In this document: positions 678-47,177 of the stretch, piece by piece
How positions within the stretch are numbered: position 1 is the stretch's first letter
Layout of the letters: each line of letters begins with the position of its first letter
NCBI GenBank assembly: GCA_963714275.1
Contig: CAVQNT010000002.1
Location: forward strand, 942,576-1,006,575
DNA length: 64,000 nt
Direction: 5' to 3'
Source: Candidatus Bathyarchaeota archaeon
GTDB lineage: Archaea > Thermoproteota > Bathyarchaeia > Bathyarchaeales > DTEX01
Program-made: the position numbers and the translations under genes
Notes under the pieces: generated by a model
The model's input: the letters and a program-made list of their open reading frames with translations, nothing else
Told to the model about the DNA's origin: nothing
Databases searched by the model: none

Positions 678-1165
678 TAGATTATCTGGCTTATTTGAGA
701 TTCTAAGAATCTTTGACAATCTAGCTCACTCTTTAGTTTATGAGAGGCTACTTTGAGGTCTGCAATGTTCTATAAGAATATTACATGTTATTTTAATTAT
801 TGATCTGAACTTTAATCTGAAGCCAAATAGGTGTCTCTTTATAATTGGATTTATCTTCGACATCAAAAGAAGAGGAGGAAGACAAAGGGTTCTTTTAGGA
901 AGTTGAGAAAGTGAGACTTTTACCCAGAATAACTAATTAACTAAAATATGTCTAGTATTTAGTTATATAATTTTGTTTCACAACACTTTTACTAATAAAA
1001 AAATATATAAAAAAAGATTTAAAATGACTGAAAAGCCAGAAAAACAAGCCAGATACGAGACGGATCATCATAAGCGAGAGCTAATTTCTCTTATTGAAAA
1101 GCTTAACAAGAAAGCTGAACTCCAACAAATAACAAAGAAAAATGACCTGTCAGAAGAGGAACATA

Positions 1166-1410
1166 TTAGCTCACTAAGTTTTTTATTTCTTTCTCGTGTT
1201 CTTCAGCTATTTTGCAAGCTTCCTTGTATTCAGCACAGAGCTTATCAGTTTTTCCTCTTTCAAGAATAACTTTAGGCTTGTCTTTCCCATTTTTACTACT
1301 TATCCTTAATGTCACCATCCCTTCTTTCATCCGATAAACTCCGTACCGTATACATTCGTATTGACTGAACAGCAACTTTGTTATTGTCTTCCATCTGAGA
1401 TAACGGTTAA
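1166..1410 (-). pseudogene. Gene remnant of unknown function
   Basis: ORF 1166..1375 is open upstream to about 1410, has no convincing start, and is bounded by TAGCTCACTAA (1167) and AGCTAACTCACTAA (1411). Confidence 0.3.
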
Positions 1411-1615
1411 AGCTAACTCACTAATTCCCACTGGTAGCATCCAGCACAATTAAGTGGTATATCTTGTGAAGTCAGCTTATCTCTAAGGAACATGTCTCCA
1501 TAAGCTTTGCCATACAGTTTCCCTGTCTTCTCGTAATAATCCCATTTCACATCAACTTCCTTAACTAGGAAGTAAGTTGTGAGGTGCCACGAAAACTGCC
1601 TAACCTTATGTGTGA

Positions 1616-1640
1616 ATTAAAATTTAATCCCAAACCCAAA
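1616..1640 (-). repeat. Dispersed G-tract/palindrome site, reverse-orientation copy
   Basis: ATTAAAATTTAATCCCAAACCCAAA is the reverse complement of TTTGGGTTTGGGATTAAATTTTAAT. Confidence 0.8.
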
Positions 1641-1671
1641 AAATAACTAACTAACGCGCGTTCTGTTTATT

Positions 1672-2553
1672 TCATGGGGGAGTCACGGTTACACTGAATG
1701 TCCAGATACCAATAGAATTTCTAAACCAATAAGCATCAACGTTGACAACACCAAGTTCAAAAACAAAATATCCATCTTTTGGAATTGTAAACCTCGGCGG
1801 ATCATCCAAGCTGATTTGTTCACATGCGATATCACCTAGTTCGCTACCATTATTCAAAAATACGTAATTGTATCTCAGATACCATCCTTCTGTTACATCA
1901 GAAGGATAATCAAGAAGTCTCAAAACAACAACATCTCCCTTTCTCAATTGGATACTTTGATTGAGGCTGTCAATTATGTGCATAGCGCTCCCTCGTATGT
2001 ACCACTCATTTTGAAATTTGGCAAGCGCGTTTGCTTCAATTGGGGGATTGTATTCAATTTCTATTTTGAAGGTCTGTTTCAGTTTACCAAGTTTCTGAAA
2101 GTGGTCAAGAATCCTCGAATCGTTTCTAGGGTCTACGCCCTTAAAAAAATCTGAGGAAGGATACCCTTTTTCCAGCTTTATTGTACTGTCAGTTGTATTG
2201 ACAAAAGTTTCTATAACTATTCCATGATATGAAACAGATGAAATTGGAGTCCAAAAGGATCCATTATAAATCTCTTGGTTGCCTATTTTCAAAACAAAAG
2301 GCTCCCCATGGATTACACTTTCCACTTTCAATGCTTGTATTTTCTTGACTCCTTCTTCAGTGAGTTTGATTTCGTGACTGCTTTTGTTATACCACACGAT
2401 TTCGTCATCGGATATTACTAGTTCATTGTTCTTCAGAAGGTAAATCCCAAATCCCTCACTCGAGAATCTGAGTTGATTAGTTAGGTAGAATCCTCCAGCG
2501 ACTACAAGAACTGCAACTATTAGAATGACCAATGAGATTTTGATTGTTTCCAT
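1672..2553 (-). CDS. Membrane-anchored or secreted hypothetical protein
   Basis: 293 aa ORF with N-terminal hydrophobic anchor (ISLVILIVAVLVVAGGFYL); GGAG-type RBS upstream on the minus strand. Confidence 0.75.
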   Translation of the reverse strand: METIKISLVILIVAVLVVAGGFYLTNQLRFSSEGFGIYLLKNNELVISDDEIVWYNKSSHEIKLTEEGVKKIQALKVESVIHGEPFVLKIGNQEIYNGSFWTPISSVSYHGIVIETFVNTTDSTIKLEKGYPSSDFFKGVDPRNDSRILDHFQKLGKLKQTFKIEIEYNPPIEANALAKFQNEWYIRGSAMHIIDSLNQSIQLRKGDVVVLRLLDYPSDVTEGWYLRYNYVFLNNGSELGDIACEQISLDDPPRFTIPKDGYFVFELGVVNVDAYWFRNSIGIWTFSVTVTPP

Positions 2554-2837
2554 AATAGAGCTGCTCCTAAACCTTCTCTTATCTGTTTGGATTTAATTAT
2601 TAAATTCAAGATAAAGGTGAAGTAGTAGAGTTGATTTTCAAGTTATAATTGCGATAGAATATGTCCTGCTGGCGCCATCAAACACCAGTCTAAGAAAAAA
2701 AACTCGAAATAATCAGAAATCTGCGAAAGAAATAGCAGAATGCGCGTTTGATTGACTGTTCGACCATTTGAGTGATTGATTGAGATTGATAGATAGAGAT
2801 TGATAGAGAAAGAGAGAGAGTATATATAAGTGAGAAA

Positions 2838-2924: not shown

Positions 2925-3596
2925 GTGGTTCAGATGAACATTGACGTTTTTCGGGATAAACTTAGCTCTCAATTAGGAGAAAACCTCAAATGTTTAGTTC
3001 ATATGGGTAGTCGTGTTAGAGGAGAGGCAAGGGTTGACAGCGACTACGACTTCGCATTGATCGTTCACAACATAAACAGAAAAGTCTTGGATGAAATTAG
3101 AAATGTCTTCTCAGATTACCAAAATGTTTCAGTCTATATTCTCGAAGAACAGGAATTAAGGCGTCTCCCAAAAGCCTTGTGCGCCACAAATTTGCAGTTT
3201 ATCTACTCTAGGGTGGTCTATGGTGAATGCTATTTCCCAAAGCCGAGTACGGAGGACATCGACACCTACATTGGCATCATGAGGAGCGACGAGATTTTCG
3301 CTATTCGACATTATCTTACTCTCTCTCACGATTTGAGTAGATTAGTTGAAATAATTGGAATGCGACTAAAGATGGTGTACTTCTGTCTAACATATCTCAT
3401 CTACAAGGAGACAGGCGTTCTCTCAAGAACAAGACTCGAGGCGATGGACTACCTTAAGAAGAAAAGCTCCCAGAGACTCGGGGTTGCTCTTCTTGAGATT
3501 TTGGAGAATTGGCAATCTATAGAAACTTCGGCAGCTGAGAGAGTACGCGAGTATCTTCACATGTTGGAGGAGTTCTGGCGTACCCTTGAAGCATAG
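2925..3596 (+). CDS. Nucleotidyltransferase (Pol-beta/MNT superfamily) with C-terminal helical domain
   Basis: GSRVRGEARVDSDYD matches the GS-x(10)-DxD NTase motif. Confidence 0.8.
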   Translation: MVQMNIDVFRDKLSSQLGENLKCLVHMGSRVRGEARVDSDYDFALIVHNINRKVLDEIRNVFSDYQNVSVYILEEQELRRLPKALCATNLQFIYSRVVYGECYFPKPSTEDIDTYIGIMRSDEIFAIRHYLTLSHDLSRLVEIIGMRLKMVYFCLTYLIYKETGVLSRTRLEAMDYLKKKSSQRLGVALLEILENWQSIETSAAERVREYLHMLEEFWRTLEA

Positions 3597-3706
3597 AATC
3601 TGGAGGAAAAAACATAGGGCTAGCTAGATGTGTTTGTTTATTTGTTTTTGTTTGTTTAGCCTTGTATTGGTAAGTATGAGTATTGGAGTATAGGGGCGTA
3701 AGTAAG

Positions 3707-3731
3707 TTTGGGTTTGGGATTAAAATTTAAT
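3707..3731 (+). repeat. Dispersed G-tract/palindrome site (consensus copy)
   Basis: TTTGGGTTTGGGATTAAAATTTAAT followed by CTTTTT. Confidence 0.85.
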
Positions 3732-4800: not shown

Positions 4801-4923
4801 AATAGCGTCACTTGCTTTCTTTTATTAGTCTTTTACTGGAAGTCCGCGGATTTCATTGAATATTTAGAAGATATCCAAAACGGAGAAAAACAGGTCTGTT
4901 AAGTAAATCGTGCGCGCTTCTCT

Positions 4924-6009: not shown

Positions 6010-6069
6010 GTTAGATAGTTCAACGATTAAACTTAAGTATTATTATAACGCGCGTTCTGTGTATGTTTT

Positions 6070-7033
6070 TCATGTTTTTGTGTGTATTAAAAGTTTATGT
6101 AACTCTTCCCCGAAACCTTTTATTTGAACGAGGGTTCCTAGGCAGGTTGCTTCGTTTGAAAGATCTTTGAAGCACTTTGAGCATTGAGATATCTTTTTGA
6201 AGTTAAGGTTTCTCAACTTGTTCATTAACTTGGATTGGTTGTAGATTGAATATAGCCGTTTTTCTCTCACGTTTCCTATGCAGAACTCTTTGAAGGCAAG
6301 TAAATGGCAAGGATAGACTGACCCTTCAGGATAGACGGTGAGAAACTTTCCTACGCCGCAGTTGAATTTATCCTTTGTCTCGCGCTTTAAATATAGCCCA
6401 AATGTTTCATACCAGAACTCCCCTACAGTCCTTTCTACCTCTTCTGGGTTACATACAATTTTTTGATCTCTAGCCTTTCCTGCAAGCCTCAAAGGGGAGA
6501 CATGGATCTTAAGGATCCCATTTCTGATCATGAAGTGCATAAAGTCTTTCAGATGTGGGAGGTTCAAGGAAGTAACAGTGATGAATGCCACAGGGTCTCC
6601 TCCAGCCTTCAGTATGTATCTAAAGGCATTTATTGCCCCCTCAAATGTTCCTTTGCCTCTTAATTTTTCGTTGACTTCTTCAAAGCCATCGATACTTATC
6701 CTTATCTCGTGAAAACTGTGAACCAGGTCACTTGCATTCTCTTCTTTTATCAAAGTGCCGTTCGTCGTCAAACACAGACTTTATGTCGTTTCCCGCATTC
6801 TTAAGTGATTGGGCAAGTTCCAGAATGTCATTTCTGAGTAAAGGTTCGCCACCTGTGAAGATGATTCTCCTCGGGTTAAGCAGAGAGGCATCCCTGAGAA
6901 CTGGAAACATCTCCTCTGTCGAGAGCTCTTTCTCGAAGGGCTCTCCAGCTGAGAAATAACAATAAACGCAGCGGAGATTGCAAGCCTTCGTGACATGAAG
7001 ATAAACCGTGTCTAATGACCTGATAACTTCCAC
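6070..7033 (-). CDS. Radical SAM/SPASM protein, frameshifted near 6780
   Basis: CNLRCVYC and FTGGEPLL in 6728..7033; SIDG and SPASM CGVG..GSVYPC..GNV..CSKC in 6070..6771. Confidence 0.9.
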
Positions 7034-10139: not shown

Positions 10140-10418
10140 CGTCAGCAAGCAATATCCCTTAGGAATGTTGCTTCGACCAATATTGATTGAAAAAAGGTAG
10201 CTAGCCTAGAGTGCTACACCATTTAACAAGCACTATTATAGCGCGCGTCATCTCAATTTTAGATTCGATTCTTTAAGAGTTAAAATAAAAAAAAGGAAAA
10301 AAAAGACAATGTTATTCGGTGTATAGTTTGGAGGAAATAGATGAGGCTTTTAACTGGCTTGTGCTGATTCTTGGCACGCTGGCTGCGACTTTGATTGAAT
10401 CTATACATACCTATTTAG

Positions 10419-11027: not shown

Positions 11028-11334
11028 GTTGGGAAGGTACTTATTGAGGCTGAAACGCCTTATCCGAAATCATCTCTAACCAATGGGTTAGTTAGTTTAG
11101 AAGCACGCAGACTACATCTCGACCATGCCTTTAATGAGGAGATTTCAGTGATAGACTTGGCTGGCGACCCCGTAGAGTTGCTTTCAGTTCAGAAGAAAGC
11201 CTTTGTGGACTTTTCAAGAGTAGATACCTCTGGTTTAGAACAACTAAAGAACTTGATGATTTTCTGAGTCGCGATCTAGCTCAGCTAAACTTTCAGACTC
11301 TTTCTTAACCAGCACTGTCTCATGTTCAATCTAG

Positions 11335-12021
11335 CTAGGCTTTTTTTCGAGAATATTCAGCTTCTGCTTTTCCTTTTCGGAAAATGTGGTTTCCTATAAG
11401 CACTATTAGTGCACATGTTAGGGAAATAACAGTGTAAGCAGGAATTCCCTGCGTAACCATTCCCCAAAAGTAAAATATGAAAAGAAGGAGCCCAGCAAGC
11501 ATAATATATACCCCAAAGATTCTTAGAGCCATGGGAAAAACTCTTTCAAAAAATGGAAAGGTCTTTCCAAGTAACATTTGAAATCCAATGATAAACAGCA
11601 TCAAGCTTGGTATACAGAAAACAGCAGTACTTATAGAATATAGTATGAAAGGTGGTAAAAAAGAGTTTTTTATCATCGAGTAAAAAACAATAAGTAGGAT
11701 AATGCCAATCAGTAAAGCAATTAATCCATAAAATTTTTCTTTTCCTGTAGACTCATCGTAGGACTGGGTTCCAGGATGTAAAGGAGCAACCTTGGATTTC
11801 CTCAGGCTTCTATAGCCAAAATATATTATTGCGATTGAAGGGATTAGCCCAAACGCAATTACCAGAGCTATCACTAAGGCTGGATCAACGCCTTGAGGTA
11901 CAGTTGCCATCATGGGGTATAAACCAGCAAGAACACTTACCAACCAATATATTCCAATGATGAACAGAAGGATGGCAATCGCCTTCCCTTTATTCATGAT
12001 TAATCCAATCCTCCTTCTCAA
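11335..12021 (-). CDS. Multi-pass membrane protein (~6 TM)
   Basis: Six hydrophobic segments; the stop codon lies inside a CTAGCTAG motif. Confidence 0.75.
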   Translation of the reverse strand: MRRRIGLIMNKGKAIAILLFIIGIYWLVSVLAGLYPMMATVPQGVDPALVIALVIAFGLIPSIAIIYFGYRSLRKSKVAPLHPGTQSYDESTGKEKFYGLIALLIGIILLIVFYSMIKNSFLPPFILYSISTAVFCIPSLMLFIIGFQMLLGKTFPFFERVFPMALRIFGVYIMLAGLLLFIFYFWGMVTQGIPAYTVISLTCALIVLIGNHIFRKGKAEAEYSRKKA

Positions 12022-12167
12022 AACACAATTATAATCGATTTAATTTAAGGATCTGCCATTTTTATCGTTTCTGGTATAGCTAGCTGACTTAATAGCACAG
12101 ATTATTTTCTGATGCTTGTGGCCCAAGCTGCAATTTCATGTTTCATTTGAAATCTGATATTGCGCAG

Positions 12168-15844: not shown

Positions 15845-16053
15845 TCCTCTGTGTCCATAATAAATCTAGTGGCATTATTTAAGGTTAGTGGTAATAAACT
15901 TTATAACTAGCTAGCAAAGACGCAAGCCATAAAGGGCCAACTGAAAATATTCCAAGTCTAGCTGGCTAATGGCCCTATGTAAGGGCGCGCTAAAATGTAG
16001 TTATTTTTTTATTCTAAGGAGATGATAATGATAAAGATATAGGAGTTGATTAA

Positions 16054-16470: not shown

Positions 16471-16914
16471 AACATGTGTTGTTCAAATCTATAAAAAAAG
16501 ATGCCCAAATGAGTAAACCCTAGGTCATTTATTAGAGATAATAGGGGTGAAATTTACTTTATTAGTCTTTTAACCATCAAATTGATTGATAAAATGAAGA
16601 AAACGAACGTAACAGCCACCAGCTATAAGAATCTAAGAAGCATTGAAAGATCAGGCATGGTTGTGCCCAACAAATGATTAATTCATATGATTTCTCTTCC
16701 TTCAATTGTAGGACAGCGGTGAATGCTATTTTATGATAAGTCTGTTTCAGTCTGTTTTTTTTAAACAGGGTTTGAATTTGGCTTATCTCACGTATACAGA
16801 AGGTTGCAGAAGGCTACAAAAGGTGTTAGAAGTACAGGGAAGGCTGGTTGAAACATGCCCTTAACTGAAACTGTAGCTAGCTCAGCTGGTTTATTTTTGA
16901 GTCTTTAGTATTGA

Positions 16915-17671: not shown

Positions 17672-17754
17672 AACTATAGTGCAATTCGAAAATTATGGTT
17701 TTTTGTTCAGAAGAAAAGTGAAGGTTATCCATGATTGTCTATGTTGGCTAGCTA

Positions 17755-17869
17755 GATTCTTATATTTAGGAGCCATCCTATGTCTTGGCTCCACCATATT
17801 AGGTAGATCTCTTTGAATCCATTTCGCAGGATAACTTCAACGGCTTTCGTTAGGTTCATAGTGTAATAG
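17755..17869. repeat. 115-bp gene-fragment repeat (other copy 33033-33147)
   Basis: Shared CCATCCTATGTCTTGGCTCCACCATATT and GCTTTCGTTAGGTTCATAG; bracketed by CTAGCTAG and AGCTAGCT. Confidence 0.85.
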
Positions 17870-18168
17870 TGAGCTAGCTATCCTAAACCAACTTTAACGC
17901 GTTCAACGTGGTATAAAATTCTGATTTTTTAAGAAGAATGTTTCTGAATTTTCAAAATAGAAAAAATTGTTATCAGAAAAATATGTTCTGTAATTTAGTT
18001 ACTTATTATTCTAAATATTAAATATAAATATGTTGTATGTTTAGGTGAATGACTTGCGAAAGCATTCATTACCATATTTATTAATTTTAGCTAGATAGCT
18101 GTTCTAAGCCCTTTTTCATGCGGACTGTGTGCTAAAGCAATGATCCTATATTATTCAACTTTACCTTT

Positions 18169-22650: not shown

Positions 22651-22692
22651 CCTTTTCCTATTTTATATTTATTTTACACAAATAGCTAGCTA

Positions 22693-22853: not shown

Positions 22854-22980
22854 GCGCGCGCTAGCTAGAATGCAAGTCACGGAATCTACAGGAAAATGTG
22901 CATATAGCTCAAGTCCAGTTTTTATCTATTCAAAGACTTCTTTCTTAACCATGAATTTGTTCACTAAACAAAGGAAAACT

Positions 22981-23824: not shown

Positions 23825-24194
23825 GAAAGAATATTATCAATTATTTATCTGTTTGGTGAAATAAATTTCACTTGTTGTAACTGATTAGCTACGGCATTTT
23901 TACTTAGCTTTGGCTATATCTAAGGCTGGTGTAACCACAAGTGATGATGGCAGCGACAGCTTCTTCAAGTAGTGAGCTATTTCACCTATTGGAACAGATT
24001 TCCAGATAACAGGACCTTAATTGAACAGCCTAATCCAATAAAAATTAAAGTTAAGATTCCAGTTCCTAGCTTTTGGCTTATAATACCCTTAACAATTGCA
24101 GTCTTTTTAAAAAACTATCATAGTCTGATCATTCTACGTGTGATGTGGAGAAAAGTGTAGATATGGAAGAAAGAAGGTGGGAGTGCGTAGAAAT

Positions 24195-26676: not shown

Positions 26677-26736
26677 TTAATATTATATAGTCTTTTATCA
26701 ACCGATTTTACGGACAATTATCTTTGCCCACTAATG

Positions 26737-28011: not shown

Positions 28012-28241
28012 AACTCGAATAGTCAGCTAAGTAACGGCAATGTACTTTTAACATCTAGCTGGTTAACGATGAGTCCAGAAAAAGAATTTAGGTATAGCTC
28101 TTGGATTTGGTGGTTTGCCTGTTACTACCACAGAAACAAGCTTAGACATACATGTTTTCGTCTAGAGTTTTTTGTGCGATATATGTCTGTCTGTCCGTCT
28201 CTCCGTCTGACTGATCGTCACGGAAGGTAGAGAGAGCGTGT

Positions 28242-29575: not shown

Positions 29576-29602
29576 TACATATGAGTGACAAAGCTAGCTA
29601 GC

Positions 29603-29822
29603 AAGCATATCAAGAACAGAAAAGACAGTAACAGCAATTATTGATTCTTGGTGCAATCGTAGTAATAGTGGTTGTAGTCGTCGTAGCAGTGATGATGCGA
29701 AGAAAAAGATAAAAACGGCGTCTTTTCTGCTGTTAATTTTCGATAGACTCGATTCTCACTCCTTTGTCCGCAACTTTCGTGATGTAAGCTTCTCCGCCTT
29801 CCTTGTTTATGGCTTGTGCAAC
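29603..29822. pseudogene. Remnant made of the 3' end of a TM-anchored surface gene (+) and the convergent 3' end of a GHMP kinase (-)
   Basis: (+) LLILGAIVVIVVVVVVAVMMRRKR*; 29703-29822 matches 44951-45070; flanked by AGCTAGCTAGC and CTAGTCAGCTAG. Confidence 0.8.
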
Positions 29823-29874
29823 TAGTCAGCTAGCGTTCTCGCACTCTCTGAGATTTCTTTCGTGTTCATTTGAG

Positions 29875-30575: not shown

Positions 30576-30793
30576 TGCCTTTAAAGTGGGACATTATTCA
30601 GATTGCGCGTGATGTTTCAGTTATCTGGCATTTTAGAATTTGCCTCTGAGCCTTCTTTATTAGGAAGGCTTTATTCATTAACAGGAAATTGGTTTCGGCG
30701 GATTTTTAATGTTCATGCGTTTTTTCTGTTTAAAGCCATTTTATGGTTTTTGTTAAGCCTTCTTTCAAGTTCACCTTGGGCATCCATAGCTGA

Positions 30794-31027
30794 CTAAAGC
30801 GCTTTATCAAGTTTTGAGGAGTTTGTCTTCACTCCGGTGTTGTCGGGTTCTATGTTAAACAAGGGGTCCTCATCAATAGCGATTTGTGTACTGATCCAGT
30901 GCTGAACGGCTTCCCGTACGCCTTCCTTTATAGTCAGCTTCCTCTTCTTCGCAGCCTTCACGAGGAACTCGTATTCTTTCTCATCGAGCTCGGTCTGGAC
31001 CGCTTTTCCATTAGCCAAATCATTCAC
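30794..31027 (-). CDS. Ribbon-helix-helix/CopG-like orphan antitoxin, probably 3'-truncated
   Basis: VQTELDEKEY..AKKRKLTIKEGVREAV..DPLF..SSKLDKAL; stop falls in a TAGCTGACTAA motif and no toxin follows. Confidence 0.65.
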   Translation of the reverse strand: MNDLANGKAVQTELDEKEYEFLVKAAKKRKLTIKEGVREAVQHWISTQIAIDEDPLFNIEPDNTGVKTNSSKLDKAL

Positions 31028-32129: not shown

Positions 32130-32385
32130 TACTTAGTAGGAAAGTAATACTTAAGTCTTTTATCCTTACCAGCTGGTTCAGTATTAAGCGAAGCATGAAT
32201 ATTCATGAATACGTTTTCGGACTTCCATGTTTCGGGCATTTCCTTTGTTCGCGGTTCCTGTAACGTGAGCTTCTTTTGGTTCATAGTACCATCTCTGTTT
32301 TTAGATTTGCTATCCGGTTTGCGTTTTTCGAAGTCCTGCATTCTGAAGAGAAGTAGTAGTCTCCATAATATTTAGGTCAGTTAGC

Positions 32386-32562
32386 TTAGCTTTTGGAAAG
32401 TAAGCCTCGTCCTATCTGTTCGCCTTTGTGGACTGGAACAACTGTTACTCGCCCATCAGCGTGTTTCAATATCACGTGACTGCCTCGTTGTCTCACAGGC
32501 TTAAAGCCGATCTTTTCAAGTACTTTTATGATCTTCCTAGCTGGAAGCGGTCTTAAGCTCAC
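32386..32562 (-). pseudogene. hicA: HicA toxin, C-terminally truncated (absent from the ORF track)
   Basis: Hand translation from GTG: SLRPLPARKIIKVLEKIGFKPVRQRGSHVILKHADGRVTVVPVHKGEQIGRGLLSKS*; stop lies within TTAGCTTAGCT. Confidence 0.82.
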
Positions 32563-33147: not shown

Positions 33148-33372
33148 ATCATTATGCTGGCTTAGCTTCATGCTGTATTCAAATGATATTTTTAAAAAAA
33201 AAGTTTTATTTTTCCAAAAATAAAAAAAGTCAGCTAGCTACTATTTTTATATAAAAGACTTATGTGGTCATTCATTTTACTCATAGAAAAGTATATTTTA
33301 TGTTGATTTTTTGTGAATTGAAATTGGTAACTTTTTAATACTTTTTGTCACTTTTTGTTACTGGTGTTAATT

Positions 33373-33610: not shown

Positions 33611-33985
33611 TTGAGCGCTTTGAAGCATGGTTTATTCAGAATTGGGTTTATGCTTTGTGATCGTTGCGTTTTAAATGGTGAATGCGAGAAATTTCAGCCT
33701 AAAGCTCAGTGTTTGTTGGAGAAGGAGGCTTTTGAAAGCTTTGCGCAAGGAAGTAATGATGCCCATAATGTGGTGAATAAATTGAAGGAGCAGTTTAGTG
33801 TTAAGTTGATTCATGACAGCTTAACTGATTTGCTTGAGCATGAGTATCCAGACGACTCTAAGAGAAAGTTGATTGATGAAATGTGCGAATTACTACATAG
33901 GATGAAGGGTTACCATCATGCAGAGAAACTAGATGTAAATGGTACTATAGGCATAAGTATCCGTCATAACCGAGAACACAGTTAG
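33611..33985 (+). pseudogene. Chimeric ORF: Cys-rich N-terminus fused to a paralog of the gene at 1..677
   Basis: From EAFES onward it aligns with 31..462 and its continuation; ends at GTTAGCTAAGCT. Confidence 0.6.
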
Positions 33986-34037
33986 CTAAGCTAAAAATAG
34001 AGTCGATGTGTATAAGCAAACCCCAAACATTAGTGAG

Positions 34038-34280
34038 CTATTCTAACTCTTCTTTCATCTTCAGGTATTGCTCTGTTGCTATCTCTCCCCTTGCATATCG
34101 TTCTTTGAGTATCTCAAGAGGTCTTTCGCTGGTAGATGGTGTTCTAGTGAATTCAGTGACGAAGCAGTATGCTCCAATCGCCACCAGTACGAGGAACACT
34201 ATCGATATTAGGGGTGCGAGCCCCCAGCCATATCCCATCATACTCATCATCCCGTGTGTGAATCCTGTTAATGGTCTCAA
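34038..34280 (-). CDS. SHOCT-domain membrane protein
   Basis: MMGYGWG, a TM helix, then PLEILKERYARGEI..EQY.KMKEEL. Confidence 0.85.
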   Translation of the reverse strand: MRPLTGFTHGMMSMMGYGWGLAPLISIVFLVLVAIGAYCFVTEFTRTPSTSERPLEILKERYARGEIATEQYLKMKEELE

Positions 34281-35044: not shown

Positions 35045-35168
35045 TGCGTAACCGTCAAATATTTTCCAGCGAATATAGCTGAGTTAGCTATACACACGCA
35101 AAGGTTTCAGGTTAGAAATTAGCCATGCTAAAAGTGGTTGAATAGGACAAAGGAGAGCGCGCGTAATT

Positions 35169-37627: not shown

Positions 37628-37887
37628 AACGTAACACCAAAATCATTATCAACTTGTAGAGAGTTAAAACTTTCCGTAATACTACCACTTCATTTTCCTT
37701 ATTTAACAGCAACCAGATAAGCTCGCGCGCGCCAAACTTACTTTCCTTCTTTTTTCAGACTAGCTAGTACCAGCTTTCAAAAAGTACAGTATATTTCCAC
37801 GGTGGTTTTTTTGGACTAAGTGGATGACTGATGAAGAGCATGAGTTGTTTAGGTCTTTTTGGAAGAACATCAAGAAACTTAAACAGT

Positions 37888-40780: not shown

Positions 40781-41051
40781 ACAAGAATGCTAGCTCAGCT
40801 AGATTCTTTAGATTTCAACCGATAACATGGGAGGATACTCTTCAGCCATTCTGAAAATAAGTTCCTCTTCCCAGTAGACCTTAAGGTAGAATCCATGTCC
40901 TAGCTAAGCTCACTAACTATCCATAATGCTATACTTCACTCTCTAACAGAGAGATAGATAACAAACACGCAACACAAAAAAATAACTTTGAAGAATTTAT
41001 AAGACATAAAAGTATATATATTTATATTATCGGAAAAAGGGTTAGGTTGAT

Positions 41052-42062
41052 ATGAAAAAAATTTTAAATGAGCCTTCGGGATTTGTCGACGATATGCTTC
41101 AGGGCATCTTAAAAGCCTATCCAAACCACCTGCGTCTTGTTGAAGGTAGTAGACGAGCTTCAGCTCGGGTTGAAGCTCCCGTTAAAGAAAAAGTAGGTAT
41201 TGTTACAGGCGGAGGTTCAGGTCACCTTCCAGTATTTCTGGGATATGTCGGAAAAGGACTCGTTGACTCGGTTGCAGTTGGAGATGTCTTCAACTCTCCC
41301 ACTATGGATGATGTGCTGGCGGCTACTAAGGCAGTAAACGCTGGTGAAGGAGTTCTGTACCTTTATGGGAATTATATGGGGGATGTTCTTAACTTCGACA
41401 TGACTGCTGAAATGGCCGAAATTGAGGGCATAAAAGTTGAAACGGTCTTAGTTAGCGACGACGTGGCTTCAGCTCCTAAAAACCAATGGAAAAGAAGAAG
41501 AGGAATCGCTGGCTTATTTTTTGCCTATAAAATTGCAGGCGCAAAGGCTGAAGAGCGTGGTAAACTAGATGAAGTTAAAGCAGTAGCCGAGAAAACTGTA
41601 TTTAACACCCGTTCGATGGGTGTAGCCTTATCTCCATGCACAATCCCCGCTGTCGGTAAACCAACATTTAGTATTAGCGAAGATGAGATGGAGTTAGGCA
41701 TGGGCATTCACGGTGAACCTGGTATTGAACGAACCAAAATGATGACTGCTAATGAAATTGCGAATATATTAACTAATAAGATTCTGGAAGATTTACCTTT
41801 CAAGAAGGAAGATGAAATAGCCATTTTAGTTAATGGCTTAGGCGCTACCCCTCTTGAAGAATTATTCATCGTCTATAGCAAAGTAAACGAAATTCTGAAT
41901 GAAAAAGCGATTATCGTGCATAAAGCCTACATAGGAGAGTATGCTACCTCTATGGAAATGTCAGGCTGCTCATTAAGTCTTCTTCGACTTGATGAAGAAC
42001 TGAAAATACTTCTTGACACGCAAGCTTTCTCACCATTCCTTATGCAATGGGGATGCTATTGA
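41052..42062 (+). CDS. dhaK: Dihydroxyacetone kinase subunit K family
   Basis: GGGSGHLP, GNYMGD, DDVAS, RRGIAG, GMGIHGEPG, NGLGAT. Confidence 0.93.
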   Translation: MKKILNEPSGFVDDMLQGILKAYPNHLRLVEGSRRASARVEAPVKEKVGIVTGGGSGHLPVFLGYVGKGLVDSVAVGDVFNSPTMDDVLAATKAVNAGEGVLYLYGNYMGDVLNFDMTAEMAEIEGIKVETVLVSDDVASAPKNQWKRRRGIAGLFFAYKIAGAKAEERGKLDEVKAVAEKTVFNTRSMGVALSPCTIPAVGKPTFSISEDEMELGMGIHGEPGIERTKMMTANEIANILTNKILEDLPFKKEDEIAILVNGLGATPLEELFIVYSKVNEILNEKAIIVHKAYIGEYATSMEMSGCSLSLLRLDEELKILLDTQAFSPFLMQWGCY

Positions 42063-42707
42063 AAGATAAGATAACGTCTGCTTACTTAATCAAAATATTC
42101 GAAAAAATAGCTAATGATGTTACAGAATCTAAAGATTTCATCCGTGAACTTGATGCAGCCGTAGGAGATGGCGATCTCGGGGTAACCACATCCGACTGGA
42201 TTAAAGAGTTTAAGAAACGGTCTTGTTGAACTTTCAGACAGTGATATAGGAACCATCCTGATTAAATGCGGTATAAACTATAACAAGTCTGGGGCATCTA
42301 CCTTTGGAACGCTATTAGCCATAGCATTAATGAAAGCAGGAAACGAGGTAAAGGGTAAAAATGATGTTGATCTACTCGACCTTGTAAAAATGGCTAATGC
42401 AGCTGTTCAAGAAATCAAAGATCGTGGAAAGGCGCAAATAGGCGACAAGACGATACTCGACGTTTTAGTGCCCGCTACTGAAGCGTTGCAAAGTGCATAT
42501 AACCACAAAAAGAATATGGCAGAGGCTTTGGATGAAGCTTTAAATGCTGGTGAAGAAGGCTTAAAGTCAACCATACAAATGAGGTCGAAGGTTGGTCGTT
42601 CCAGCTGGCTGGGAGAAAAAACAATAGGAAAACAAGATCCAGGCGCTACTGTAATTTATCTAATGCTTAAATCATTCACCGAATTTGTGAAATCACTAGC
42701 TGACTAG
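42047..42707 (+). CDS. dhaL: Dihydroxyacetone kinase subunit L family, frameshifted ~42195
   Basis: LDAAVGDGDLG; RGKAQIGDKTILD; GRSSWLGE..DPGA. Confidence 0.88.
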
Positions 42708-43967: not shown

Positions 43968-44019
43968 CTTTTAAAATAAAAGATTTTATGGTTGAATTGA
44001 TTCGCGCGTGCTTTGAATT

Positions 44020-44054
44020 GGTTTGGGATTTGGGTTTGGGGATTAAAAATTAAT
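44020..44054 (+). repeat. Dispersed G-tract/palindrome site
   Basis: GGTTTGGGATTTGGGTTTGGGGATTAAAAATTAAT. Confidence 0.8.
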
Positions 44055-44243
44055 GATGATTATTGGCATCAAAACAAGCCAGTTTCGATGGACATAGTGC
44101 ACTATACTATTCTACTTTGAGTGTAAGTCAGTTTGAAGGCATCTGGGATTCTTTTTAGCTAGCTTAGCTAATTTTTAAATCTCAACAGGGCAATGACTTG
44201 AATAAAGTAGAGGGACACGTTATTCCTGTACCAATATCTTTTT

Positions 44244-44888
44244 TTAAATGAGGTCGATTTCCAGGCACTCGGCCAGTGCCCAGAGAATTCTTAAGTTGGC
44301 TTTTAAGGTTCCTCCGATTCTGGGATTCTTCCTCCTGACTGATTCATAGAGTGTTTCGCCTATCTTGAATCCTTTCTTTTTGGCGATTACTAGGAGTTCT
44401 CCGCCGAAGGTTTCGTCGCATTTCAAGTTAAAGTTTGAGACGGTCTCCTTCTTGTAGACTCGGAAGTTTGAGAAAACATCCTTCACACCGAGTAGTTTGC
44501 CCAAGGTTCCGGACGCTAGTTTCTCGGATATTCTGGGCAGCTTTGTGCGTGAAGCAACGAGAATGTCGCATTGTTCAGCTTTTTCGACAAGCTCGGGTAT
44601 GAGTTCTGGAGGGTTCTCGAAGTCAGCGTCGATTGTGACTATGACTGGGTATTTTGCCAGCTTCATCCCGTGGAGTAGGCCTTTCGTTTGTCCTTCTCTG
44701 GCCTTTCTGATTGTTTTGTCTGCAAGTTTCTCAGCGATCTCTGCAGTCCCGTCTGTTGAGCTGTCGTCGACGACTATGATCTCGTGTGGCATGTTCTTGA
44801 GTGTGTTCTGTATGGTCTGGATTAGAAGTTTAATGTTTTCTCGTTCATTCCATGTTGTTGTTACGACGGATACTCCATCCGCATTCAT
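44244..44888 (-). CDS. GT2 glycosyltransferase (polyprenol-phosphate sugar synthase-like)
   Basis: TWNERENI, VVDDSSTDGT, TIDAD..PPELIP, ASR. Confidence 0.88.
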   Translation of the reverse strand: MNADGVSVVTTTWNERENIKLLIQTIQNTLKNMPHEIIVVDDSSTDGTAEIAEKLADKTIRKAREGQTKGLLHGMKLAKYPVIVTIDADFENPPELIPELVEKAEQCDILVASRTKLPRISEKLASGTLGKLLGVKDVFSNFRVYKKETVSNFNLKCDETFGGELLVIAKKKGFKIGETLYESVRRKNPRIGGTLKANLRILWALAECLEIDLI

Positions 44889-44980
44889 GGTTTAAGTCTC
44901 TAAATGAAAGGGTAGATAAACGGTTGGTTCCTGAATAACCAAGGTTGCCTAAAAAGATAAAAACGGCGTCTTTTCTATTG

Positions 44981-46117
44981 TTAATTTTCGATAGACTCGA
45001 TTCTCACTCCTTTGTCGGCAACTTTCGTGACGTAAGCTTCTCCGCCTTCTTTGTTTATGGCTTGTGCAACCTTTACTTCGTCTCCGGGTTCACATAGGGC
45101 GATCATGCATCCGCCGCCTCCTGATCCTGAAAGCTTCGCTCCTAATGCACCAGCCTTAAGAGCTGCTTCTATTAGTTCGTCGAGTCTTGACGGTGACACT
45201 GGGCAGTCTCCTGAAACTTGGAGAAATTTTTTTAAGTAATGCTGGTTTTCGTTCATCAACTCACCTATTCTACTACAGTTTGGTGAAGGTTTCTCGAGTT
45301 CTTCTTTGGCTTTTCCAACAATTTTGTTTATGTTTTCCATGCCTTCAATGAACTTTTGTTCTCTACTTTGAATCGTTCACCGAGCCAACCTAGTACTTTC
45401 GGCGTATCCTTTGGTTGCATTGTGTCTCCTATCACTAACGGAAGATCTGTTTTGGGTTTTAACCGGTGAATTTTCGCAGGTTCTTCGGTGCAGTCGATGT
45501 GCAGGATTCCTCCAAAAGCTGAGGCATACTGATCCATCTGGCCGCAATTAATGCCTAATTCCTTCCTTTCACCGGTGTATGCCATGTTTGCATAGAGGGT
45601 TAACGTCTCTGGTTTTGATGTATACTCTAGAATAGTAGTGGAGTCCTGTTGCTCGATTTCTGGAAAACGGTGGGTCAAGTCAACCGCGGCTGAGATGACT
45701 ACACACATCGCAGCTGATGATGACAAGCCCTTACTTACTGGCAGATCCTTTAAAGCCTCTTTCTTGCCTTCTTGTCTTAACCGTTCCTGAACTTCCTCAG
45801 ACTCTTAGGAACCGCATCTTCATCCCTCCCAAGATATATGGCAGATCCTTTTTTTTCTGGAAAGCTCTTAGCACCCCTCCAACATATTTAAGATCGGAAT
45901 TCCAGTTCAGAATTGCATTGTTCACCTCGAACTTGTCATATACTGTGAATGGGCTGTAGGAAAACACTTCAGCAACCTTGCTGCTGGTAACCTCAGCTTC
46001 AACGAACGACCTCATATCTACGGCGCAAGCAAGTACTTTATGCCTGCACCAATCCATGTGTTCACCGAAAAGGCATATTCTTCCTGGAGCGGATACAATA
46101 ATTTTACTAATTATCAA
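44981..46117 (-). CDS. GHMP kinase (galactokinase-like sugar kinase), two frameshifts
   Basis: APGRICLFGEHMD, GLSSSAA, CGQMDQ, GAKLSGSGGGGC. Confidence 0.88.
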
Positions 46118-46179
46118 TCACCTTTTTATGAAATGGATACTTGTTAGTTTGAACATGCATTCTTCTTTGTTGCTTTGCT

Positions 46180-47055
46180 TTAGTTTTGGCTATGCTTTCT
46201 GTTTTTCAGGTTTTGGTAGGAGATGTTAAACGATTGCCAACAACTTTCTGGGTTTCCTATGTCGATTAGTATCCCGTCAGGTGGTAATTTGACAGCGTAG
46301 ACTTTCAGGCCTTGGTCAATCATCTCTTGAATTCCGTCTGTTATCTGCACTTCGCCCCCTTTTTTTTGTTGTGCGGTATCTTCAAGGGCTTTGAAAATTT
46401 TCGGATTGAAGATGTATACAGGTATTATTGCAAGATTGGTTTGAGGTTTCTCGGGTTTCTCGACGGCTTTTTCTACGTTGTATATTCCGTTTTCGATTTC
46501 TTTTCCTTCAATCACCCCATAGATTTCGGGGTTCTCAACTTCTTTAATCAGCATGGTTGCGTCAGCCTTATACTTTTCGTGGCTTGATATCAAACGGCGG
46601 ATATGATTGCAGTCTTTATCTAATATAGTCATATCTCCTGCATGTACTAGGAAGGTTTCATTTATGAAGTATTCAGCTCTTAAGACGGCGTCTCCGAAGC
46701 CTTTAGGTTCTGGTTGGTTTATGAAGACGATGGTGGAGTTGTTGACTCGCCAATAGAATCTTCTAAGTTCTTCAGCGAGCTCAGCCTTGTTCATTTTTTC
46801 GAGTTCTCTTACAAATTCTTCATCAGGTGTGAAATGGTCTTCTATAGATCTTTTCCCCCTACCCACTATGAAGCCGAACTCTCTGAACCCAGTGTCGTAA
46901 AGCTGCTCATAAATGGCTTGAACAATCGGCTTCAAACAAGGTCCACCATTCACACTGTCCAGAAAGATGGGCAGCATCTCCTTAGGCATCTCCTTCGTCA
47001 TCGGAAGAAGCCTAGTCCCCAAACCAGCCACAGGCAAAACAGCCTTCCTAATCAT
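46180..47055 (-). CDS. galU: UTP--glucose-1-phosphate uridylyltransferase
   Basis: KAVLPVAGLGTRLLPMTKEMPKEMLP, QPEPKGFGDAV, VEKP, GEVQITD. Confidence 0.88.
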   Translation of the reverse strand: MIRKAVLPVAGLGTRLLPMTKEMPKEMLPIFLDSVNGGPCLKPIVQAIYEQLYDTGFREFGFIVGRGKRSIEDHFTPDEEFVRELEKMNKAELAEELRRFYWRVNNSTIVFINQPEPKGFGDAVLRAEYFINETFLVHAGDMTILDKDCNHIRRLISSHEKYKADATMLIKEVENPEIYGVIEGKEIENGIYNVEKAVEKPEKPQTNLAIIPVYIFNPKIFKALEDTAQQKKGGEVQITDGIQEMIDQGLKVYAVKLPPDGILIDIGNPESCWQSFNISYQNLKNRKHSQN

Positions 47056-47107
47056 AAAAACAACCTTTACAAAATTCTTTCATTATGTGTTTATATGTTT
47101 TTTAGGC

Positions 47108-47177
47108 ACATAGGAGTAAGGTTGTTATTGATATTGCTGAGCCAGCGTAGAATAGGTTTTGGGGCTAAAATTCTAGC
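47108..47177 (-). repeat. Diverged fragment matching the 3' end of the large GT-C gene (48398-48467)
   Basis: Shared GCGTAGAATAGGTTTTGGGG; ends at CTAG. Confidence 0.75.

What the first reader, a model, noticed from the sequence alone, without database searches (positions are those of the whole stretch)
720..47177. AGCT/CTAG tandem scars at the ends of gene remnants
Seen: CTAGCTAG, AGCTAGCT, AGCTNAGCT and variants near 3620, 10198, 11276, 11331, 12078, 15907, 16876, 17748, 17872, 22684, 22861, 29593, 29822, 30787, 32377, 33230, 33981, 35076, 37760, 40788, 40900, 42696 and 44156. They coincide with the truncation of hicA and the RHH antitoxin, and with both ends of the 17755-17869 and 29603-29822 remnants. 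Established: IS630- and IS5-family elements favour CTAG targets, and end-filling a 4-nt CTAG or AGCT overhang then ligating gives exactly these tandems. Inference: they are footprints of repeated transposon excision or adjacent deletion, or of restriction cutting with end-joining repair, which would be unusual for an archaeon.
Basis: partly seen in the sequence, partly recalled or inferred. Interest (0 to 1): 0.78.

Follow-up and report, generated by a model that had tools for sequence, protein, structure and literature searches.

The report
Short palindromic junction motif between genes
A 10-13-base palindrome built on TAGCT...AGCTA is scattered between the genes of a patchwork region of an archaeal-looking genome, is avoided inside genes, and often sits where gene fragments were joined, which most likely marks repeated DNA insertion and removal at one preferred site.

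Summary
All 23 listed positions carry the motif. Each phase of the (AGCT)2 8-mer occurs 7 times against 0.6-1.0 in shuffles. 1.22 Mb of unrelated loci show no excess.

The tandems belong to one wider family: Y-TA-GC-TA-R, TAGCT-N-AGCTA (4 vs 0.05) and TAGCT[C/G]ACTA (8 vs 0.21). The core hexamers are about 6-fold enriched in non-coding DNA and depleted in genes. GCTAGC occurs 0 times against 5.5 expected under synonymous shuffles.

Sites lie exactly at 3 of 32 duplication breakpoints against 0.31 expected. They bracket gene fragments and a vapBC module, and supply the stop codon of six ORFs.

They are not attC-like. They show no significant link to TATA-like boxes or T/A runs and only a weak bias to gene 3' ends.

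Filling in a 4-nt overhang cannot make the gap-1 or asymmetric classes. The anatomy (TA + 2-3 nt + 2-3 nt + TA inside CTAG) fits IS630/Tc1-type excision footprints at a palindromic hot target. No transposase, MITE or relative genome could be found to confirm this. A dRS3/NIME-like recombination site is the main rival. Confidence 0.35.

The parts
720..729 (.). weak family member CTAGCTCACT (right TA missing)
1167..1176 (+). asymmetric class TAGCTCACTA
3620..3627 (.). CTAGCTAG, 24 nt after the stop of ORF 2925-3596
10198..10209 (.). compound TAGCTAGCCTAG
11277..11287 (.). gap-1 palindrome TAGCTCAGCTA
11331..11338 (.). CTAGCTAG; supplies the TAG stop of ORF 11335-12021 (minus strand)
12077..12090 (+). 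compound TAGCTAGCTGACTT; 14 nt identical, inverted, to 33227-33240
15907..15915 (.). CTAGCTAGC between divergent vapB and the RidA-like gene
15959..15968 (.). one-mismatch copy TAGCTGGCTA
16874..16887 (.). compound TAGCTAGCTCAGCT upstream of vapBC 16915-17671
17747..17755 (.). GCTAGCTAG; left cap of the hicA-like fragment; supplies its stop codon
17756..17866 (-). hicA-like 5' fragment (35 codons), 86% copy of 33033-33147, bracketed by motifs
17867..17880 (.). compound TAGTGAGCTAGCTA; right cap of the hicA-like fragment
22683..22692 (.). perfect 10-bp palindrome TAGCTAGCTA at the decayed end of duplication 22121-22650
22860..22868 (.). GCTAGCTAG directly abutting a (GC)4 run
23970..23979 (-). 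asymmetric class TAGTGAGCTA
28020..28031 (-). asymmetric class TAGTCAGCTAAG, 9 nt after the stop of ORF 27319-28011
29591..29602 (.). AAGCTAGCTAGC; 17 nt upstream of the MscS-like start; left cap of the composite remnant
29603..29821 (.). composite remnant: about 100 nt of unidentified sequence (29603-29702) plus a 96% copy of the galK 3' end and downstream DNA (29703-29822)
   Evidence: left half not identified
29822..29834 (-). CTAGTCAGCTAGC; right cap of the remnant; left arm of a 10-bp inverted repeat around vapBC 29875-30527
30787..30797 (+). TAGCTGACTAA; right arm of that inverted repeat; supplies the TAG stop (30794-30796) of the RHH-like ORF 30797-31030 (minus strand)
32379..32392 (.). 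AGTTAGCTTAGCTT; supplies the TAA stop of hicA 32386-32574 (minus strand)
33229..33240 (-). GTCAGCTAGCTA in the 33-kb patchwork of ectopic fragments
33983..33993 (.). gap-1 palindrome TAGCTAAGCTA; supplies the TAG stop of ORF 33611-33985
34031..34040 (-). asymmetric class TAGTGAGCTA
35076..35090 (.). TAGCTGAGTTAGCTA at the decayed end of duplication 34510-35044
37760..37767 (.). CTAGCTAG, 28 nt from a (CG)4 run
40789..40801 (.). GCTAGCTCAGCTA, 46 nt after a copy of motif B
40900..40914 (.). compound CTAGCTAAGCTCACT upstream of dhaK
42696..42707 (+). CTAGCTGACTAG; supplies the TAG stop of dhaL, 11 nt before the flavodoxin-like ORF
44156..44170 (.). compound TAGCTAGCTTAGCTA

Best explanation
The AGCT/CTAG tandems are the commonest members of one family of short, TA-bounded, nearly palindromic junction sequences. 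The forms are Y-TA-GC-TA-R (CTAGCTAG), TA-GCT-(N)-AGC-TA and TA-GCT-[C/G]-AC-TA. The most likely origin is repeated insertion and excision of a TA-duplicating cut-and-paste transposon of the IS630/Tc1-mariner type at a CTAG-centred palindromic target. Insertion duplicates the TA. Excision leaves both TA copies plus the 2-3 terminal nucleotides of each transposon end, here GC or GCT...AGC. A GC overhang is self-complementary, so the two donor ends could be sealed by annealing and ligation alone. Each footprint recreates CTAG, so the site can be hit again. That would give longer and compound forms. Two elements that moved the DNA between them, or made adjacent deletions, and then left would produce gene fragments and small modules capped by the motif on both sides. 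The hexamer core would be counter-selected in genes because it is a hot target.

Shown here: the enrichment, the shape of the family, the non-coding location with depletion in genes, and the coincidence with breakpoints.

Inferred: the transposon, its end sequence, the sealing route and the reason for the depletion.
For: (1) Anatomy. Outer flanks are T at -1 in 29 of 40 half-sites and C (20) or T (13) at -2, with no information further out. Among the 16 CTA-NN-TAG octamers only NN=GC is enriched, 7 vs 0.48. Among all strand-merged TA-N6-TA decamers the two clear outliers are TAGCTCACTA and TAGCTGACTA, 4 each vs 0.06 and 0.11.
(2) The outside is conserved and the centre varies in content and length. 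AGCT-AGCT is enriched at gap 0 (7 vs 0.9) and gap 1 (8 vs 1.2), with gaps 2-4 at background. This is how footprint series look: the Sleeping Beauty preprint lists two canonical and six non-canonical footprints, all TA-flanked (10.1101/659086, passages).
(3) IS630 is listed with target CTAG and a 2-bp duplication (PMC2577343, Table 1). IS630, Tc1, Tc3 and mariner are said to leave 2-bp footprints.
(4) Compound sites share a TA between two units (10198, 12077, 16874, 17867, 40900, 44156).
(5) Breakpoints: 3 of 32 duplicate endpoints within 3 nt vs 0.31 (P=0.003), and 6 of 32 within 40 nt vs 1.54. Fragments 17756-17866 and 29603-29821 are capped on both sides.
(6) vapBC 29875-30527 is flanked by a mirrored pair of the asymmetric form, 10 of 10 nt.
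(7) Six ORFs take their stop codon from the motif, as expected if the TA of a TAG or TAA stop was the target (the sixth from my reading).
(8) The enrichment is absent from 1.22 Mb of unrelated loci.
Against: No transposase, transposase remnant or MITE was found. 79 large ORFs were scanned against Pfam, and subsets against NCBIfam, PHROGs and PADLOC. 110 of 215 small ORFs were scanned against Pfam; the other 105 were not scanned. Among 329 TA|GCT...AGC|TA candidate pairs the best inverted-repeat match is 14 of 24. A general search for TA-flanked inverted repeats gave 2 hits against 0-2 in controls.
About 25-30 footprints in 37 kb with no element present is a very high ratio. I know of no prokaryotic precedent; this is recalled, and one search listed none by title.
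The model does not directly predict depletion of GCTAGC (0 vs 5.5) and TAGCTA (1 vs 7.6) inside genes.
Two distant sites share 14 identical nt including non-TA flanks, which looks more like copying than independent formation.
The asymmetric centre cannot be derived from one pair of perfect terminal repeats.
No filled-versus-empty pair exists among the internal duplicates.
Whether this organism can join ends is unknown.
Confidence: 0.35

Rival explanations
1. The palindrome is a recombination or insertion site for an unidentified site-specific enzyme encoded elsewhere. It would be comparable to the dRS3 repeats of neisserial intergenic mosaic elements. DNA modules and fragments are exchanged or inserted at the sites, so each junction keeps a copy. 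Sites inside genes are purged.
For: The core is depleted in genes and enriched between them. Sites bracket modules and short ectopic fragments. Distant sites share 12-14 identical nt. The tract length varies from 8 to 11 nt, as out-of-register exchange within a 4-nt periodic core would give. dRS3 elements are likewise short inverted repeats with a variable centre. They flank 50-150-bp units in dynamic arrays and are used by a phage recombinase (PMC1797815, passages). Site density is confined to the mosaic part of the window: 1.77 per non-coding kb in 10-47 kb against 0 in 47-64 kb.
Against: No recombinase was found in the ORFs scanned. Information is confined to about 12 nt, which is short for known recombinase sites. 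Spacing between half-sites varies (0, 1, and one with 5), which is unusual for a protein-recognised core. Only 3 of 32 duplicate endpoints are exactly at a site.
Confidence: 0.25
2. The palindrome is a functional DNA or RNA signal kept between genes by selection. It could be a binding site for a dimeric protein acting as an insulator or roadblock, or an all-frame translational stop. The ideal form (CTAG)3 has a stop in all six frames.
For: The core is enriched in non-coding DNA and counter-selected in genes beyond the in-frame stop constraint. Both copies of the 22-kb/35-kb duplication keep a motif at the same relative place while the surrounding spacer has diverged. There is a weak bias toward gene 3' ends: median 95 vs 205 nt, P=0.03. 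Six ORFs stop in it.
Against: There is no link to TATA-like boxes (4 of 24 vs 3.1, P=0.37) or T/A runs (8 of 20 vs 5.6, P=0.17). All gap types are occupied alike (3/7, 3/8, 7/16, 4/7), and 16 of 34 gaps are occupied, no more evenly than random (P=0.27). No site lies in the 2.0 kb of non-coding DNA at 47-64 kb. A generic three-stop motif is only weakly enriched on one strand: 20 vs 11.4, and 9 vs 13.8 on the other. Gap-1 forms do not stop all frames. Out-of-frame stops would not be harmful in genes, so the stop function does not explain the depletion.
Confidence: 0.12
3. The tandems come from mutation and repair bias. Candidates are slippage of a palindromic tetranucleotide repeat or a methylation-dependent short-patch repair that creates palindromes, as proposed for cyanobacterial HIP1.
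For: There are two self-complementary simple repeats, (AGCT)n and (CG)n, and they are the top enriched words in non-coding DNA. Tract length varies from 8 to 11 nt. HIP-type palindromes are known to be 15-300-fold over-represented (PMC5861425, abstract) and have been tied to methyltransferases (PMC4390886, abstract as listed).
Against: Single AGCT and CTAG are not enriched. [quoted passage not shown] Slippage explains neither the gap-1 and asymmetric classes nor the breakpoint association. No DNA methyltransferase was recognised in the window; only generic class I SAM methyltransferase domains were found.
Confidence: 0.08
4. One reading: restriction cuts at CTAG or AGCT leave 4-nt overhangs that are filled in and blunt-ligated.
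For: The exact 8-mers CTAGCTAG and AGCTAGCT are what such a fill-in gives, 7 each. GCTAGC is depleted in genes, as a restriction target might be.
Against: It cannot give TAGCT-N-AGCTA or TAGCT[C/G]ACTA. It would need two enzymes, each cutting outside its 4-bp word. Restriction avoidance should also deplete non-coding DNA, where the core is about 6-fold enriched. Bases flanking CTAGCTAG are not those of one 6-bp site (G..A three times, and T..G, A..C, G..C and A..T once each). No restriction-modification genes were found in the window.
Confidence: 0.05
5. Artefact: chimeric joins or linker sequence introduced during library construction or assembly.
For: The ideal form equals a synthetic stop linker (recalled, not checked). 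The window holds many frame-shifted genes, which raises a question about sequence quality.
Against: The forms are diverse and partly decayed. Duplicated fragments next to them are 80-96% identical, so they are old. The core is depleted within genes across the window, which is an evolutionary signature. ORFs use the motif as their stop. Reads were not available.
Confidence: 0.04

Closest known systems
Excision footprints of Tc1/mariner/IS630-type transposons
   Same: There are two TA copies with 2-7 nt between them. The outer context is C...G, as for the CTAG target listed for IS630. The series has a conserved outside and a variable centre.
   Different: No cognate element or transposase was seen. 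The density is far above anything I know from prokaryotes (recalled). The core is depleted in genes. The asymmetric centre is not explained by perfect terminal repeats.
Neisserial intergenic mosaic elements (dRS3 repeats flanking RS units)
   Same: Both are short inverted repeats with a variable centre that flank short, unrelated non-coding units and lie at rearrangement and insertion points (PMC1797815).
   Different: The sequence, length (12-13 vs 20 bp) and spacing rule differ. Here the repeats bracket whole genes and gene fragments, not families of RS units. There are no long regular arrays. The organism looks archaeal.
Highly iterated palindromes (HIP1) of cyanobacteria
   Same: Both are short palindromic oligomers many-fold over-represented, with function still debated (PMC5861425 abstract).
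   Different: HIP1 is abundant and conserved inside ORFs as well. This core is absent from or rare in ORFs and is concentrated in one 37-kb mosaic region.
Integron attC sites, including archaeal integrons
   Same: Both are boundary sites between small, often toxin-antitoxin cassettes, with the ORF stop lying in or next to the site (PMC9668308, passages).
   Different: There is no single-strand fold: 19 of 20 sites have |z|<2. ORFs lie on both strands. The site is 12-13 bp long. No integrase was found in the window.
Palindromic staggered-cut target sites of DDE transposons (e.g. Tn10/IS10, NGCTNAGCN with 9-bp duplication)
   Same: The gap-1 class contains GCT-N-AGC, the IS10 consensus quoted in PMC4574204 and PMC2577343. 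Motif pairs flank short inserts.
   Different: The duplication lengths implied by the three best pairs are inconsistent: 6, 8 and 7 bp (my reading). The inserts have no terminal repeats.

Membership tests
IS630/Tc1-mariner excision footprint | Two copies of the TA target flank the residual nucleotides | tested here: met
   T at -1 in 29 of 40 half-sites. Only GC is enriched among CTA-NN-TAG octamers, and the top TA-N6-TA decamers belong to the family.
IS630/Tc1-mariner excision footprint | The residual nucleotides equal the termini of a cognate element present in the genome | not testable with these tools
   No element in the window.
IS630/Tc1-mariner excision footprint | A DDE transposase of the family is encoded | tested here: not met
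   No transposase domain in 79 large ORFs or in 110 of 215 small ORFs of the window. This covers the window only and says nothing about the genome.
IS630/Tc1-mariner excision footprint | The empty site (single TA or CTAG) is seen at the same position in a relative or paralogue | tested here: inconclusive
   Internal duplicates give no clean filled/empty pair. No orthologous DNA was available.
Integron attC site | An imperfect inverted repeat of tens of bases that folds as single-stranded DNA | tested here: not met
   120-nt ssDNA folds of 20 sites gave z from -2.44 to +1.69, with 19 of 20 at |z|<2.
Integron attC site | Cassette ORFs mostly in one orientation, next to an IntI integrase | tested here: not met
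   Genes lie on both strands. No tyrosine recombinase domain was found. The criterion is as described in PMC9668308.
NIME / dRS3 | A 20-bp repeat with conserved 6-bp inverted arms and an 8-bp centre | tested here: not met
   The arms here are YTAGCT with a 0-1 nt centre. The dRS3 definition is from PMC1797815.
NIME / dRS3 | The repeats flank short unrelated units and mark variable, recombining regions | tested here: met
   Five close pairs flank 42-220-nt segments. Breakpoint association P=0.003.
HIP1-type highly iterated palindrome | Many-fold over-representation of one short palindrome | tested here: met
   7 vs 0.5-1.0 per 8-mer.
HIP1-type highly iterated palindrome | Abundant and conserved inside ORFs as well as between them | tested here: not met
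   GCTAGC 0 vs 5.5 and TAGCTA 1 vs 7.6 in 41,361 nt of coding sequence.
Restriction fill-in scar | Only exact duplications of the overhang occur | tested here: not met
   The gap-1 class (8 vs 1.2) and the asymmetric class (8 vs 0.21) are equally enriched.
IS10-type target duplication | A fixed-length direct duplication of the palindromic target flanks the insert | tested here: not met
   The longest shared flank words of the three best pairs are 6, 8 and 7 bp (sequences).
REP/BIME-type extragenic palindrome | A hairpin-forming imperfect palindrome of 20-40 nt | tested here: not met
   Information is confined to about 12 nt and no fold signal was seen. The REP definition is recalled.

The most novel reading that the evidence does not exclude
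An archaeal counterpart of the neisserial mosaic-element system. A 12-13-bp palindrome, YTAGCT(N0-1)AGCTAR, would be the working site of an as yet unknown DNA breakage-and-joining enzyme. That enzyme inserts, exchanges and truncates gene modules (toxin-antitoxin pairs, horizontally acquired operons such as dhaKL, and gene fragments). The site regenerates itself at every junction and doubles as a stop in up to six frames. This would be a new kind of minimal cassette boundary, unrelated to attC.
Probability: 0.2. Interest if true: 0.75.

Novelty: new variant of a known kind. Interest (0 to 1): 0.55.

Why it matters
If the footprint reading is right, this region is an unusually dense fossil record of cut-and-paste transposition and end sealing in an archaeon. 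It would show how such elements move and truncate toxin-antitoxin and other modules. It would also imply an end-joining or cohesive-end sealing route in a lineage where that is little documented.

If the recombination-site reading is right, it is a new, very small site that organises a mosaic gene region.

Either way the motif is a practical marker for module boundaries and rearrangement points in this lineage. The hypothesis is cheap to test once the whole genome or sister genomes are in hand.

Tried and rejected
1. attC-like folded sites: ssDNA folds of 20 sites show no signal.
2. Structured small RNAs between motif pairs: 8 RNA folds, all |z|<2. Rfam found nothing in the window.
3. A 26.6-kb element integrated within hicA (17756-44330): rejected. 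The 44278-44330 piece is the natural C-terminus of the GT2 protein and not a hicA half.
4. One site per gene gap ('punctuation'): 16 of 34 gaps are occupied, no more even than random.
5. Promoter element: TATA-like boxes are not associated.
6. Terminator element: T/A runs are not associated, and there is only a weak 3'-end bias.
7. Antitoxin operator: distances to the TA operon starts range from 28 to about 370 nt (my reading).
8. Fixed-length target-site duplication: the implied lengths are 6, 8 and 7 bp.
9. Longer half-site or shared element termini: flanks carry no information beyond -2.
10. IS or MITE in the window: none. ORF 1672-2553 between 44-nt inverted repeats has no family or atlas hit, and its ends are copies of the common intergenic motif B.
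11. TAG recoding: TAA 23, TGA 21, TAG 20 among 66 gene ends, 2 of which were mis-set coordinates.
12. Frameshifts as homopolymer errors: only 3 of 12 zones hold a run, so this is undecided.
13. tRNA D-arm origin of TAGCTCAGCTGG at 16878: no tRNA was found, and the idea was dropped.
14. Relatives: the single genome-contig scan, with DhaK as query, returned only distant and mostly bacterial loci at ≤66% identity. Plasmid megablast found no match.
15. Literature: searches found no description of this motif in archaea. This is judged from titles and listings only.

Full report
OBSERVATION. The window is 64,000 nt at 40.6% G+C. It has no tRNA and no Rfam match at gathering scores. 14 are exact 8-nt periodic AGCT/CTAG tandems, 5 are AGCT-N-AGCT, and 4 are looser variants.

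The single words are ordinary: AGCT 283 and CTAG 172, with order-2 Markov ratios of 0.91 and 0.97. The tandems are not ordinary. Each of the four phases (CTAGCTAG, AGCTAGCT, TAGCTAGC, GCTAGCTA) occurs 7 times against 0.56-0.98 in 200 dinucleotide-preserving shuffles, maximum 4. They are the top four of 240 tandem-duplicated tetranucleotides. They rank 1, 2, 4 and 7 among all 8-mers against an order-3 Markov model. In 1.22 Mb of unrelated loci fetched for another purpose the same words occur 6 times against 5.6 expected. The excess therefore belongs to this DNA.

ONE FAMILY, THREE FORMS. AGCT-AGCT pairs are enriched only at gap 0 (7 vs 0.9) and gap 1 (8 vs 1.2). Gaps 2-4 are at background, and a gap-5 signal (5 vs 1.4) comes at least partly from compound sites. 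CTAG-CTAG is clearly enriched only at gap 0 (7 vs 0.65), with a weaker gap-5 excess (3 vs 0.73). The 11-bp palindrome TAGCT-N-AGCTA occurs 4 times against 0.05.

With one mismatch allowed, TAGCTAGCTA has 13 matches against 1.8, and TAGCTNAGCTA has 8 against 2.2. A third, asymmetric form, TAGCT[C/G]ACTA, is as strongly enriched: 8 vs 0.21. Its two versions are the clear outliers among all TA-N6-TA decamers.

Outside the outermost AGCT, only T at -1 (29 of 40 half-sites) and C or T at -2 (20 and 13) carry information. Among the 16 CTA-NN-TAG octamers only NN=GC is enriched. The family is therefore Y-TA-GC...GC-TA-R, about 12-13 bp, with a conserved outside and a centre that varies in content and length. 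Several sites are compounds of two units sharing a TA.

WHERE THE SITES LIE. All 16 GCTAGC hexamers lie in the 19.7% of the window outside ORFs of 70 aa or more. In 14,950 nt of non-coding DNA, counted on both strands, GCTAGC occurs 32 times against 5.3 and the 8-mers 12-14 times against 0.5-0.8. The only comparably enriched words are alternating CG runs.

This is more than the trivial exclusion of in-frame TAG. In 59 credible genes (41,361 nt), 300 synonymous-codon shuffles give 5.5 GCTAGC (observed 0; 1 of 300 shuffles as low) and 7.6 TAGCTA (observed 1; 2 of 300). AGCTAG gives 7.8 (observed 3). TCTAGA, ACTAGT, CCTAGG, AAGCTT and CAGCTG are not depleted.

Site density per non-coding kb is 0.36 in 1-10 kb, 1.77 in 10-47 kb and 0 in 47-64 kb. 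Within 10-47 kb, 16 of 34 inter-gene gaps hold a site, no more evenly than random (P=0.27). Convergent, divergent and tandem gaps are occupied alike. There is no association with TATA-like boxes (4 of 24 vs 3.1) or T/A runs (8 of 20 vs 5.6). There is only a weak bias toward 3' ends: median 95 vs 205 nt, P=0.03. All three stop codons are in ordinary use (TAA 23, TGA 21, TAG 20).

Six ORFs take their stop codon from the motif (and my reading):
- ORF 11335-12021
- the hicA-like fragment
- the RHH-like ORF 30797-31030
- hicA 32386-32574
- ORF 33611-33985
- dhaL 42330-42707

JUNCTIONS. A self-comparison finds ten duplicated pairs. I kept eight after dropping a HEAT-repeat internal match and a motif-B match. 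Of their 32 endpoints, 3 lie within 3 nt of a site (0.31 expected, P=0.003) and 6 within 40 nt (1.54 expected, P=0.005). The other 26 do not.

The 17756-17866 piece is the first 35 codons of a hicA-like gene. It is 86% identical to 33033-33147 and is capped on both sides. The right part of the 29603-29821 piece, 29703-29822, is a 96% copy of the last codons of galK and the DNA downstream of it. The left 100 nt could not be identified. Both outer ends of this piece are capped.

The two copies of the 0.5-kb duplication (22121-22650 and 34510-35044) each reach a motif 32-34 nt beyond the well-conserved part, through decayed sequence. The vapBC pair at 29875-30527 is flanked by a mirrored pair of the asymmetric form, 10 of 10 nt. 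Near 33 kb, short ectopic copies are joined without a motif, one junction by a 7-nt microhomology. These copies are a GT2 tail, the hicA-like head and a vapB-like head.

The label was not confirmed: Pfam gives no RHH family, and the best PDB match is E=0.75, to a chain named AvtR.

WHAT IT IS NOT. It is not an attC-type site: 19 of 20 sites have ssDNA fold |z|<2, ORFs lie on both strands, and there is no integrase. The criteria are as described for archaeal integrons in PMC9668308 (passages). The inter-motif segments are not structured RNAs. The sites are not the ends of one mobile element, because their flanks share nothing.

No transposase, recombinase, restriction-modification or Ku/LigD domain was found. 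79 large ORFs were scanned against Pfam. 22 of them were also scanned against each of NCBIfam, PHROGs and PADLOC. 110 of 215 small ORFs were scanned against Pfam. No TA-flanked inverted-repeat element was found.

MECHANISM. That route yields only exact 8-mers, so it fails for the gap-1 and asymmetric classes. A sharper version fits the anatomy. According to Table 1 of PMC2577343, IS630 targets CTAG and duplicates 2 bp. According to the introduction of preprint 10.1101/659086 (passages), Tc1, Tc3, mariner and IS630 leave 2-bp footprints and Sleeping Beauty 3-bp ones. These always lie between two TAs and show many non-canonical centre variants.

C-TA-GC-TA-G is such a footprint for an element whose ends begin GC. 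TA-GCT-(N)-AGC-TA is the longer form. A GC overhang is self-complementary, so sealing could need only a ligase (inference). Each footprint recreates CTAG and can be hit again, which explains the compound and lengthened sites (inference). Pairs of elements that moved the DNA between them, or made adjacent deletions, and then excised would leave fragments and modules capped on both sides. A stop codon's TA is a natural target (inference).

The weak points are serious. There is no element anywhere in 64 kb, and the footprint density is very high. The depletion in genes is not predicted unless the core is itself the preferred palindromic target. Two distant sites share 14 identical nt. I put this explanation at 0.35.

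The main rival (0.25) is a dRS3/NIME-like recombination or insertion site (PMC1797815, passages). It explains the depletion and the copied sites better, and the variable centre worse. Lower-ranked rivals are a selected signal (0.12), mutation or repair bias of the HIP1 kind (0.08), restriction plus fill-in (0.05) and artefact (0.04).

LIMITS. The organism is not identified. One protein's only named relatives are Bathyarchaeia and Nitrososphaeria MAG proteins at 50-56% identity, while its best matches (86-87%) are unnamed. The single genome-collection scan returned no close relative. No orthologous 'empty site', whole-genome IS inventory, methylome or junction validation was therefore possible.

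Many genes in the window are frame-shifted. Only 3 of 12 shift zones hold a homopolymer run, so pseudogenisation and indel error remain undecided. Some of the 'remnants' may therefore be less decayed than they look.

The statement that the motif is undescribed rests on searches, judged from listings only. Supplements were not consulted.

Noticed in passing
1655-1660, 4912-4917, 6049-6054, 8741-8746, 10241-10247, 12537-12543, 15078-15084, 15985-15990, 22854-22861, 35157-35163, 37724-37732, 44003-44008 (plus 4094 and 42899 inside ORFs); L041 1661-1669 and 1818-1826: Alternating (CG)3-4 runs occur almost only between genes. CGCGCG is counted 22 times on both strands against 1.6 expected in non-coding DNA. 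Four runs lie 5-15 nt after stop codons of minus-strand genes. Several lie within 100 nt of an AGCT-type site, and one abuts it directly. The only Bathyarchaeia contig fetched also has two such runs. None occur in 47-64 kb.
   Followed up: partly
3706-3731, 22105-22138, 26622-26647, 28243-28268, 34494-34519, 38235-38260, 40746-40781, 44029-44054; inverted at 1612-1640: A second recurrent intergenic motif, TTTGGGTTTGGGATTAAAATTTAAT-like, has G-runs followed by an A/T palindrome. It is often followed by a CT or TTCC microsatellite. It lies at gene boundaries in either orientation. Its function was not examined.
   Followed up: no
60035-61106, 35601-37295, 44981-46117, 56732-57887, 18169-19414, 6070-7078, 22967-23824: Many genes are split by frameshifts while the pieces still score strongly against their families. 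GDP-mannose dehydratase is in at least 5 pieces, and the helicase and galactokinase are in 3 each. Only 3 of 12 shift zones contain a homopolymer run, so pseudogenes and indel errors cannot be told apart here.
   Followed up: partly
41052-42707: The nearest relatives of dhaK found in the genome collection are bacterial MAGs at ≤66% identity, with one Bathyarchaeia contig at 57%. This suggests horizontal acquisition. dhaL lacks the first 58 profile positions. The pair is bracketed by family sites at 40900 and 42696.
   Followed up: partly
32987-33402: A patchwork of short ectopic copies is joined head to tail: the C-terminal codons of the GT2 gene at 44278-44330, the head of a hicA-like gene (copy at 17756-17869) and the head of a vapB-like gene (copy at 19630-19730). 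One junction has a 7-nt microhomology (GATTCTT).
   Followed up: yes
22121-22650 / 34510-35044 and 26274-26690 / 37884-38306: Two modules of about 0.5 kb are each present twice at 94-95% identity and in the same order, with different cargo between them. One copy holds MEDS-domain and DUF2341 genes and the other an SF2 helicase. This looks like conserved ends with exchanged content.
   Followed up: no
30797-31030 (minus strand): An RHH-like small ORF is not followed by a toxin gene, and its stop lies in the motif. The plus-strand ORF 30884-31183 listed by the ORF finder is probably its antisense shadow. The RHH label is unconfirmed.
   Followed up: partly
2740-2815: A run of GATTGA/GATAGA-type short repeats lies upstream of ORF 1672-2553. 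It accounts for part of the excess of TTGATTGA (8 vs 2.3).
   Followed up: no
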